Shown piece after piece: positions 57,566 to 58,540 of a stretch of 64,000 nucleotides of DNA. Source of the DNA: a virus (lineage: Duplodnaviria > Heunggongvirae > Uroviricota > Caudoviricetes); IMG/VR virus record IMGVR_UViG_2563366840_000001. One strand, 5' to 3'. Position numbers and translations under genes: made by a program. How positions within the stretch are numbered: the first letter of the stretch is position 1; every line of letters starts with the position of its first letter. Below the pieces are notes generated by a model, which worked only from the letters and a program-made list of their open reading frames with translations, did not search any database and had not been told where the DNA came from.

Positions 57566-58540
57566 TTATCCGTTACCGCGCGACGGTTTCTGCGTGATAA
57601 ACGTCTCAAGCATCTTTTCCGCAATTGCCGACCAGGTGTGACACTGGACCTTTTCAGCATTTTTCACGCGATCAACGCGAGCAATAACCTCATCCCAATC
57701 AATCCGCGACTTGATAACCATATGGTTCACCAAAGCCAGGCGATCTGGCGGAAGGCAATCTGGCGGCGTTAATATCAACGCCCCACACATTGCCGCCTCA
57801 AGAACAGTTAATCCAAGGCTTTCGGGATGCGTAACGATAAAAACGTCACTCTTACGCAATTCAGCTGCAAATTCGGTTGCTGGTACCGGCGTCCGTCTGT
57901 ATGGAGTTACCGAAATATTCCCCGGATCAATGGTAACCAATCCGTCATCGGTCAACGTTATGGCCTCATACGGAACGGCCAGGCGCTGAAGGTTCATAAG
58001 GATACTTAAGGAGTGATCAAAACCACTAACATCAAATGCCGCATGGTCTACAAAAATACGCAGAACATCGTCTGTTTTGGTTTCCAGATGGAACAGCTCC
58101 TGATTCGCTGCCCATCCAACATGTTTGTTAAAACGATTATGACGCTCTAACCTGCCTGGATTATCCAGGTACCGCCAGGTATCATCGCGGACAGTAAAAG
58201 TAATATCGACTGGTGCCGAATCCAGCATAGAACCGTCGTATACCTGGGCTACCCATCCAGTGAATCGACGACGCAGTTGCACGCCTATTTCCCTGGGCAC
58301 CGTAGTAAAATACCTCAATCCTGGTGCCAAAATGGCCTTCGCAGAACATGCGGTCGCAGCAGTCAACACAGCTTCAACATAATCCTCCGGGCTTTCGACG
58401 CCGGGGGAATATGGACGATGGTATTGCAATGTAACCCCTGCCTCACTAAAGGCGCAGGCCAGGTTATAAGCCCACATTTCCGTATATGTTTTCACATCAC
58501 TGATAGCTTCAAATTTTCGCCCAATGATCAGGATGTTCAT
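57566..58540 (-). CDS. Glycosyltransferase-like protein (GT-B fold, EX7E motif)
   Basis: 324 aa; HPESLGLTVLEAAMCGALILTP contains the E-x7-E motif typical of GT4 retaining glycosyltransferases. Confidence 0.55.
   Translation of the reverse strand: MNILIIGRKFEAISDVKTYTEMWAYNLACAFSEAGVTLQYHRPYSPGVESPEDYVEAVLTAATACSAKAILAPGLRYFTTVPREIGVQLRRRFTGWVAQVYDGSMLDSAPVDITFTVRDDTWRYLDNPGRLERHNRFNKHVGWAANQELFHLETKTDDVLRIFVDHAAFDVSGFDHSLSILMNLQRLAVPYEAITLTDDGLVTIDPGNISVTPYRRTPVPATEFAAELRKSDVFIVTHPESLGLTVLEAAMCGALILTPPDCLPPDRLALVNHMVIKSRIDWDEVIARVDRVKNAEKVQCHTWSAIAEKMLETFITQKPSRGNG

What the first reader, a model, noticed from the sequence alone, without database searches (positions are those of the whole stretch)
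57566..58540. GT-B glycosyltransferase-like gene next to dbn/ban
The 324-aa protein carries an E-x7-E motif in a GT4-like C-terminal domain. A glycosyltransferase in a replication-gene neighbourhood could modify DNA, virion proteins or host surface polysaccharide (lysogenic conversion).
Basis: partly seen in the sequence, partly recalled or inferred. Interest (0 to 1): 0.45.

Follow-up and report, generated by a model that had tools for sequence, protein, structure and literature searches.

The report
P1 dbn, a putative glycosyltransferase
The ORF is phage P1's already-annotated gene dbn, a soluble sugar-transferase of untested function; it seems to work with three other P1 sugar-transferase-like genes (pmgO, pmgP, pmgQ) in a set expressed during lytic growth that most plausibly decorates virion proteins.

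Summary

It does not lie "next to dbn". It is P1 dbn, 97% identical, annotated "possible glycosyltransferase" in GenBank and "glt" in P7.

So the finding as stated is already known. What the searched literature does not report is dbn's context.
- In a lambdoid contig and a P2-like contig, Dbn homologues sit in one contiguous cassette: PmgO-like, PmgP-like, Dbn-like, PmgQ-like.
- PmgQ-like genes follow Dbn-like genes directly in 20 of 24 non-P1 loci.
- One natural PmgO/P–Dbn fusion protein exists.
- PmgO is Maf/sialyltransferase-like. The PmgQ family is GT8-like.
- The cassettes sit in late or structural operons, in some myoviruses between the tail sheath and tail tube genes.

In P1 the set is split, and all four genes are dispensable in the laboratory. 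In this window an IS3-family element disrupts pmgQ.

The best guess is virion-protein glycosylation during lytic growth (about 0.4). LPS remodelling is the main rival. DNA glycosylation and lysogenic conversion are disfavoured.

The parts
57566..58540 (-). dbn: 324-aa soluble GT-B (GT4-like) glycosyltransferase; the finding itself
57797..57823 (-). E240-x7-E248 motif in the C-terminal Rossmann domain
   Evidence: The only ExxxxxxxE in the protein. Both Glu invariant in 56 homologues, together with T237, H238, S241, G243 and G253. This is the only stretch that aligns by sequence to solved GT4 enzymes (8xsg, 3c48).
58537..58839 (-). 100-aa ORF of unknown function in a 288-bp insertion (58541..58828) between ban and dbn; not dbn
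   Evidence: Absent from P1 and P7. phrog_12809, function unknown. TAATG overlap with the ban stop, ATGA overlap with the dbn start, AAGGAG Shine-Dalgarno. 38.5% GC against 48.9% for dbn.
58839..60209 (-). ban, DnaB-type replicative helicase, upstream gene on the same strand
   Evidence: Pfam DnaB_C E=6e-108 and DnaB N-terminal domain. 98.9% nucleotide identity to P1 ban.
56887..57519 (+). P1 gene 5 (baseplate), convergent neighbour 46 bp from the dbn stop
   Evidence: P1 annotation. Phage_base_V weak match.
50969..51631 (-). pmgO: Maf/sialyltransferase-like (MptE-like fold) putative glycosyltransferase, proposed partner of Dbn
50445..51071 (-). pmgP: paralogue of pmgO (MptE-like), proposed partner of Dbn
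   Evidence: 53-55% identical to the L111 and L113 cassette genes. The family profile hits C. jejuni CstII, E about 3e-4.
49771..50463 (-). ppp, Ser/Thr phosphatase; occupies the slot between pmgP and pmgQ that Dbn-like genes occupy in L111 and L113
   Evidence: P1 annotation. Gene order comparison.
49382..49774 (-). pmgQ, N-terminal fragment (GT8-like GT-A with DxD), cut off by an IS
   Evidence: HMM and BLAST match to P1 PmgQ. The family profile hits GT8 enzymes (Skp1 alpha-GalT E=9e-6, glycogenin). D79 and D81 are invariant.
48080..49381 (.). IS3-family insertion sequence (orfA 49004..49330-, orfB 48117..49007-) disrupting pmgQ
   Evidence: Break in P1 homology. The ORFs are listed-style output; the IS3-family assignment is my reading of the two ORF products and their arrangement, with no family search run. 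pmgQ is intact in 65 of 66 other P1-like loci.
47760..48079 (-). pmgQ, C-terminal fragment

Best explanation
The ORF is dbn of a P1-like phage-plasmid. It encodes a soluble cytoplasmic GT-B glycosyltransferase of the GT4 (retaining) type that moves a sugar from a host nucleotide-sugar to an acceptor. That much I hold at about 0.9.

It probably does not act alone. It is one enzyme of a modular phage glycosylation set whose other P1 members are pmgO and pmgP (Maf/sialyltransferase-like, so probably CMP-ulosonic-acid transferases; CMP-Kdo is the obvious donor in E. coli) and pmgQ (GT8-like, DxD). I hold this at about 0.7.

In other phages the four genes are contiguous and translationally chained to late genes. 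In P1 they are split between the ban operon (dbn) and the late pmgL operon (pmgO-pmgP-ppp-pmgQ).

Inferred mechanism, about 0.4: during lytic growth the Maf-like enzymes start a short glycan on Ser/Thr of abundant virion proteins (tail or head), and Dbn and PmgQ extend it with alpha-linked hexoses. This would be a non-essential surface decoration, comparable to mycobacteriophage virion glycosylation.

In this particular element pmgQ is broken by an IS, so the pathway may be truncated although dbn is intact.

Shown here: the fold, the motif, gene identity, gene linkage, purifying selection. Inferred: donor, acceptor, order of action.
For: Identity: 97% to P1 Dbn with the same synteny.

Linkage:
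- L111 (lambdoid) and L113 (P2-like) carry contiguous PmgO-like, PmgP-like, Dbn-like and PmgQ-like genes, 39-56% identical to the P1 proteins.
- A PmgQ-like gene lies immediately downstream of the Dbn-like gene in 20 of 24 non-P1 loci, and PmgO/P-like genes lie upstream in 12.
- P0159 is a natural PmgO/P-like + Dbn-like fusion.
- The Citrobacter P1-like plasmid L120 has pmgO-pmgP-pmgQ with a Dbn-like gene 5 kb downstream on the same strand.
- The C. rodentium prophage L118 has PmgO-PmgP-PmgQ without Dbn.

Late or structural placement:
- between tail sheath and tail tube genes, with an FkbM methyltransferase, in L095, L096 and L107, and downstream of the sheath gene in related loci;
- between connector and tail genes in a siphovirus;
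- appended to the terminase-portal operon with overlapping stop and start codons in L113;
- between the lysis genes and terminase in L118;
- P1 pmgL-pmgQ lies behind late promoter LPpmgL and C1 operators.

Selection: pN/pS is 0.12 for dbn, 0.08 for pmgO and 0.09 for pmgP, like the essential genes 5, 6 and 24.

Precedent: phage GTs glycosylate capsid and tail-tube proteins in mycobacteriophages (Freeman 2023, as cited in PMC12619734 and PMC12363180).
Against: There is no biochemical or mass-spectrometric evidence for glycans on P1 virions. The text of the P1 virion proteome paper does not mention glycosylation.

In-frame deletions and CRISPRi knock-down of dbn, pmgO, pmgP and pmgQ give viable phage, so no phenotype points to the virion.

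The cassette travels with unrelated virion architectures (myo- and siphoviruses, lambda-, P2- and P1-like), so there is no common acceptor protein.

A 42%-identical homologue, together with an MptE-like gene, lies in a bacterial kps-type capsule locus. The family can therefore build polysaccharide.

The same three enzyme families (WaaZ-like, GT4, GT8) build the LPS core, which is P1's receptor.

Pfam scores for Dbn, PmgO and PmgP are below the curated cut-offs.

The canonical GT4 Arg/Lys diphosphate-binding motif is not recognisable by sequence; an invariant D165-H166 stands where it would be expected. I could not check this in 3D.
Confidence: 0.4

Rival explanations
1. Envelope remodelling. 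Dbn with PmgO/P/Q adds sugars (Kdo plus hexoses) to the lipid A-core or another lipid-linked glycan of the infected cell. That would alter the LPS core that P1 and other phages use as a receptor, giving exclusion of superinfecting phage or less loss of progeny on debris.
Against: Expression is tied to the lytic cycle, shortly before lysis, when new LPS can hardly replace the surface layer. In P1 the partner genes are C1-repressed, so this is not classical lysogenic conversion. Insertion between the sheath and tube genes is hard to explain for an envelope function. No flippase, Gtr-type or export genes accompany the phage cassettes.
Confidence: 0.2
2. Dbn glycosylates some other cytoplasmic acceptor, either a host or phage non-structural protein or a small molecule, for example as a counter-defence or metabolic takeover function.
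For: GT4 top hits include small-molecule enzymes: BshA, MshA, sucrose-phosphate synthase, tetrahydrobiopterin glucosyltransferase. The gene is dispensable in a laboratory K-12 host, as accessory counter-defence genes usually are. In L113 the cassette borders a KAP NTPase gene.
Against: Conserved coupling to three further glycosyltransferase-like enzymes and methyltransferases argues for building an oligosaccharide, not a single small-molecule modification. There is no PADLOC match. Placement inside structural operons also argues against it.
Confidence: 0.12
3. DNA glycosylation: Dbn transfers a sugar to a modified base in P1 DNA to evade restriction.
Against: These matches rank below about 30 GT4 enzymes. 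No hydroxylase or hydroxymethylase for C or U is found in the cassette of any locus examined. P1 DNA is known from classical work to carry only methylation (my own knowledge). The helicase neighbourhood is not conserved.
Confidence: 0.03
4. In this particular element dbn is a functionless remnant, because its pathway partner pmgQ is disrupted by an IS.
For: pmgQ is split by a 1.3-kb IS3-family element. Dbn and PmgQ are adjacent in 20 of 24 other loci, which suggests dependence.
Against: dbn itself is intact, with all invariant residues. Population-wide pN/pS is 0.12. The IS insertion is rare, seen in this element and at a different site in one other locus, and so is probably recent. Dbn may act before PmgQ in the pathway.
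Confidence: 0.1

Closest known systems
Phage P1 Dbn (AAQ14048; 'downstream of ban') = P7 Glt; PHROG 2518
   Same: 97% amino-acid identity. Same position between ban and baseplate gene 5, convergent with gene 5. Already annotated 'possible glycosyltransferase' / 'glycosyltransferase family 4 protein'.
   Different: Here a 288-bp insertion with a 100-aa ORF separates ban and dbn. The 8 extra N-terminal codons of the GenBank P1 annotation are absent, and the family alignment supports the shorter start.
GT4 retaining GT-B glycosyltransferases (PimA, PimB', BshA, MshA, GlgM, sucrose-phosphate synthase, WaaG/WaaB)
   Different: Only 9-15% identity. Short at 324 aa. Pfam score is below the cut-off. 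The profile finds only 423 clusters among 1.84 billion representatives, so this is a small discrete clade that does not merge with bulk GT4. An invariant D165-H166 stands where GT4 enzymes usually have the Gly-Arg of the diphosphate-binding motif; this is sequence-level inference and was not verified in 3D.
Mycobacteriophage virion glycosylation (Che8, Corndog, Myrna; Freeman et al. 2023)
   Same: Phage-encoded glycosyltransferases, with methyltransferases in some phages, co-located and co-expressed with structural genes. Non-essential. Their targets are capsid and tail-tube subunits. The gene layout of Dbn relatives is analogous.
   Different: Gram-negative hosts. Includes Maf/sialyltransferase-like enzymes. 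Homology to the mycobacteriophage enzymes was not tested. No glycan has been demonstrated on any of these virions.
Maf flagellin glycosyltransferases and bacterial GT42 sialyltransferases (CstI/CstII), for the partners PmgO/PmgP
   Different: About 200 aa, a single domain lacking the extra Maf domains. Pfam is below the cut-off. Donor and acceptor are unknown.
LPS core glycosyltransferase set (WaaZ, WaaG/WaaB, GT8 WaaO/R/J)
   Same: The same three enzyme families.
   Different: Phage-encoded, expressed during lytic growth, and embedded in virion-gene operons. There is no evidence for a lipid A-core acceptor.
Phage DNA glycosyltransferases (T4 alpha-GT, HY126 arabinosyltransferase)
   Different: No hydroxylated-base synthesis genes. 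Lower structural rank than GT4 enzymes. The context differs.

Membership tests
P1 Dbn / PHROG 2518 | Near-identical sequence and conserved position between ban and gene 5 in P1-like elements | tested here: met
   97% identity, 98.6% nucleotide identity, same flanks. phrog_2518 E=2.6e-231.
GT-B glycosyltransferase superfamily | Two facing Rossmann-like domains | tested here: met
GT4 / Pfam Glycos_transf_1 (PF00534) | Score at or above the Pfam gathering threshold | tested here: not met
   23.8 bits against a cut-off of 26.4, residues 221-307 only. Some family members do pass: P0253 scores 28.4, and P0228 scores 26.9 on PF13524.
GT4 / Pfam Glycos_transf_1 (PF00534) | E-x7-E motif in the C-terminal domain | tested here: met
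   E240 and E248 are invariant in 56 sequences and align to the motif of 8xsg and 3c48.
GT4 / Pfam Glycos_transf_1 (PF00534) | Arg/Lys pair after the first strand of the C-terminal domain that binds the donor diphosphate | tested here: inconclusive
   By sequence the family has invariant D165-H166 and D175 after strand 160-164. hhalign to a typical GT4 aligned only the EX7E stretch.
GT4 / Pfam Glycos_transf_1 (PF00534) | Retaining transfer from an NDP-sugar | not testable with these tools
   Needs an enzyme assay.
Phage virion-glycosylation systems (mycobacteriophage type) | Glycosyltransferase genes embedded in or co-expressed with virion structural genes | tested here: met
   Relatives lie between the sheath and tube genes, between connector and tail genes, and chained to terminase-portal. 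P1 partners lie behind late promoter LPpmgL. dbn itself is in the ban operon, beside but convergent with baseplate genes.
Phage virion-glycosylation systems (mycobacteriophage type) | Glycan demonstrated on capsid or tail proteins | not testable with these tools
   The text of the P1 proteome paper does not mention it.
Phage virion-glycosylation systems (mycobacteriophage type) | Homology to Che8 gp110 / Corndog gp38 | not tested
Serotype-converting Gtr systems (GtrA/GtrB/GtrC) | Membrane-bound GT2 bactoprenol glucosyltransferase, flippase and GT-C in one cluster, expressed in lysogens | tested here: not met
   Dbn is a soluble GT-B with no transmembrane segment (maximum Kyte-Doolittle 19-residue window 1.55). 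No Gtr-like neighbours. In P1 the partner genes are C1-repressed or late.
Phage DNA glycosyltransferases | Co-occurrence with enzymes that make a hydroxylated or hydroxymethylated base | tested here: not met
   None in the neighbourhoods of 25 loci. The rest of the P1 genome was not rescanned here.

The most novel reading that the evidence does not exclude
P1, and many lambdoid, P2-like, Mu-like and marine phages of Gram-negative bacteria, carry a modular glycosylation cassette expressed during lytic growth: Maf-like PmgO/PmgP, GT4-like Dbn, GT8-like PmgQ, with methyltransferases or sugar-nucleotide enzymes in some phages. It would decorate virion proteins with a short ulosonic-acid/hexose glycan. 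That would make virion glycosylation a widespread trait outside the mycobacteriophages. It would also give four 'function unknown / putative morphogenetic' genes of the classic phage P1 a common role.
Probability: 0.3. Interest if true: 0.7.

Novelty: already known. Interest (0 to 1): 0.35.

Why it matters
As stated, the finding adds nothing. dbn has carried the label 'possible glycosyltransferase' since the P1 genome was annotated.

The useful part is the context. dbn, pmgO, pmgP and pmgQ look like one dispersed four-enzyme glycosylation pathway that is conserved and contiguous in other phage lineages and expressed with late genes.

If it decorates virions, it would extend phage virion glycosylation from mycobacteriophages to enterobacterial phages. 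That is relevant to antibody recognition, stability and host interaction of transducing and therapeutic phages, and to the very common P1-like phage-plasmids.

The single-gene P1 deletion mutants already exist (PMC9024508), so the idea can be tested directly.

Tried and rejected
1. Literature. No paper in the library links dbn or the pmg genes to glycosylation, and dbn is still listed as uncharacterized in 2023-2025 work. The P1 genome paper and the Freeman 2023 paper were not held.

2. The first IMG/VR scan with the Dbn alignment returned only P1-like loci. Sub-alignments of distant members were needed to reach other phages.

3. The GTDB species-representative scan gave only 3 hits from a single peptide pattern, so it says little beyond rarity.

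4. hhalign of the family against a typical GT4 domain aligned only the EX7E stretch, so donor-pocket residues could not be mapped.

5. NCBIfam and PADLOC gave nothing useful.

6. The promoter and terminator scan of 57300..60500 found no more than chance.

PmgQ rests on profile-to-PDB hits only.

8. My first PmgQ alignment (A4) contained an unrelated roughly 240-aa family joined by single linkage. It was removed to make A6.

9. The C-terminal roughly 200-aa extensions of 520-555-aa Dbn-like proteins match neither PmgQ nor any Pfam family.

10. The apparent excess of amino-acid changes between this allele and P1 (10 of 324) suggested relaxed selection. Pooling 49 alleles gave pN/pS 0.12, so I rejected that idea.

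Caveats. Neighbour ORFs were called with a crude longest-ORF routine. HMM E-values for sequences that were in the training alignments are high by construction.

Full report

**Identity.** The surrounding 3.3 kb is 98% identical to phage P1 and to many P1-like phages and phage-plasmids. In P1 the gene between ban and baseplate gene 5 is dbn, annotated 'function unknown, possible glycosyltransferase'. P7 calls it glt, and RefSeq calls it 'glycosyltransferase family 4 protein'. The window protein is 97% identical to P1 Dbn. So the ORF is dbn, not a gene next to dbn.

The 100-aa ORF between ban and dbn (58537..58839) lies in a 288-bp, 38.5%-GC insertion that replaces 13 bp of P1. It is chained to its neighbours by TAATG and ATGA overlaps. 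It belongs to PHROG 12809, of unknown function.

dbn is dispensable for plaque formation, by CRISPRi (PMC10695390) and by in-frame deletion (PMC9024508). As of late 2025 it was still described as an uncharacterized locus.

**The family.** A word-indexed search found 74 clusters. An exhaustive profile search of 1.84 billion representatives found only 423 at E<=1e-3 and 192 at E<=1e-30. This is a small, sharply bounded clade, not bulk GT4. Species-representative bacterial genomes hardly contain it. Across about 80 P1-like loci, dbn is intact in 77 of 78 full-length copies and has pN/pS 0.12. That is comparable to the essential neighbours 5, 6 and 24 (0.07-0.12), so selection maintains it.

**Context elsewhere is the informative part.** I collected 25 non-P1 loci, clustered their neighbouring ORFs and classified them with profiles.

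- A roughly 233-aa protein family follows the Dbn-like gene directly in 20 of 24 loci, sometimes in two or three tandem copies.
- A roughly 200-220-aa family precedes it in 12.

Searching the window with these families found them in P1 itself. The downstream family is PmgQ, and the upstream family is PmgO and PmgP.

- In a lambdoid contig (L111) and a P2-like contig (L113) the order is PmgO-like, PmgP-like, (one extra GT-A-like gene in L111), Dbn-like, PmgQ-like. Identity to the P1 proteins is 39-56%.
- A natural fusion protein, P0159, joins a PmgO/P-like domain to a Dbn-like domain.
- A C. rodentium lambdoid prophage has PmgO-PmgP-PmgQ without Dbn.
- A divergent Citrobacter P1-like plasmid has pmgO-pmgP-pmgQ with the Dbn-like gene 5 kb further on the same strand and no helicase beside it.

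In P1, pmgO-pmgP-ppp-pmgQ lie 6-8 kb from dbn. ppp occupies the slot that Dbn-like genes occupy in L111 and L113.

**Where the cassettes sit.**
- In one group of myovirus contigs the order is major capsid, head-tail attachment, tail sheath, then [MptE-like, GT8-like, Dbn-like, PmgQ-like, FkbM methyltransferase]. In L095, L096 and L107 the tail tube gene follows directly.
- In a siphovirus contig the Dbn-like gene and an FkbM methyltransferase lie between connector and tail genes.
- In L113 the four genes are appended to the terminase-portal operon with overlapping stop and start codons.
- In L118 they lie between the lysis genes and terminase.
- In large marine-type phages they sit with a cytidylyltransferase-cupin protein, a pyruvyl transferase and a methyltransferase, with a terminase gene 6-10 kb away in the two loci that reach it.
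- In P1 the pmgL-pmgQ operon has a late promoter and C1 operators.
- The one exception is a 42%-identical homologue paired with an MptE-like gene in a bacterial kps-type capsule locus.

**Interpretation.** Dbn is very probably an active GT4-type transferase. It very probably works in one pathway with PmgO, PmgP and PmgQ. The acceptor has not been shown.

Late expression, insertion inside tail and head gene blocks, the Maf-like partner (Maf enzymes glycosylate a protein) and the mycobacteriophage precedent make virion-protein glycosylation the best-supported reading, at about 0.4.

The main rival is remodelling of the LPS core or another envelope glycan, at about 0.2. The same enzyme families build the core, and a relative sits in a capsule locus.

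DNA glycosylation is unlikely. Classical lysogenic conversion is also unlikely, because the P1 partner genes are C1-repressed or late and the relatives are chained to late genes.

**Limits.** By sequence alone the family carries an invariant Asp-His where GT4 enzymes usually have the Gly-Arg of the diphosphate-binding motif. This is unverified.

**Verdict.** The feature is real but already annotated, and the label given to its neighbour was wrong. The link to pmgO, pmgP and pmgQ is not in the literature I could search, and it can be tested with existing P1 deletion mutants.

Noticed in passing
window 58537..58839 (-), insertion 58541..58828: A 100-aa ORF of unknown function (PHROG 12809) lies in a low-GC 288-bp insertion between ban and dbn. 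It is translationally coupled to both. It is present in about 12-16% of P1-like elements and is 33-38% identical to hypothetical proteins of unrelated Escherichia and Cronobacter phages.
   Followed up: partly
window 48080..49381: An IS3-family insertion sequence (orfA 108 aa, orfB 296 aa) disrupts pmgQ. It is rare: another P1-like locus (L034) has an IS at a different site in pmgQ. IMG/VR contig UViG_3300045988_115882 ends inside this IS.
   Followed up: yes
window 60241..64000: P1 homology stops 36 bp upstream of the ban start codon. In place of P1's trnI-tciCBA there is a Mu-like early/middle segment: Mor 60401..60820, GemA 60787..61404, DUF2786/DUF7168 61417..62106, and DUF3164. The junction is shared only with one IMG/VR contig (100% identical over 49303..64000). 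ban, the 100-aa ORF and dbn may thus be cut off from their C1-controlled promoter.
   Followed up: partly
L001 (P1 AF234172) dbn start; window 58540: The GenBank P1 dbn start lies 8 codons upstream of the Met at which most of the 56 aligned family members begin (MNIL/MKIL). The shorter start, used in this window, is probably the true one.
   Followed up: partly
L112 8001..8960 and neighbours: A 42%-identical Dbn homologue and an MptE-like/WaaZ-like gene lie in region 2 of a kps-type group-2 capsule locus (KpsM/T, KpsS/C, KpsD/E-like) on a 29-kb contig of unidentified origin.
   Followed up: no
L103, L104, L105, L108 downstream of the Dbn-like gene: Marine-type phage contigs carry two PmgQ-like genes separated by an unrelated roughly 240-aa ORF. 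L003 and L005 carry further copies, one of them a 471-aa form.
   Followed up: no
P0211, P0228, P0235, P0246, P0253 and others: About a dozen Dbn-like proteins of 520-555 aa have an extra C-terminal region of roughly 200 aa with no Pfam or PmgQ match.
   Followed up: partly
window 51795..52373 (-) pmgM; 52376..52621 (-) pmgL: PmgM gives a weak VRR-NUC nuclease-domain match (E=4e-4, below the cut-off). PmgL gives a weak treble-clef zinc-finger match. Both are labelled 'putative morphogenetic' in P1.
   Followed up: no
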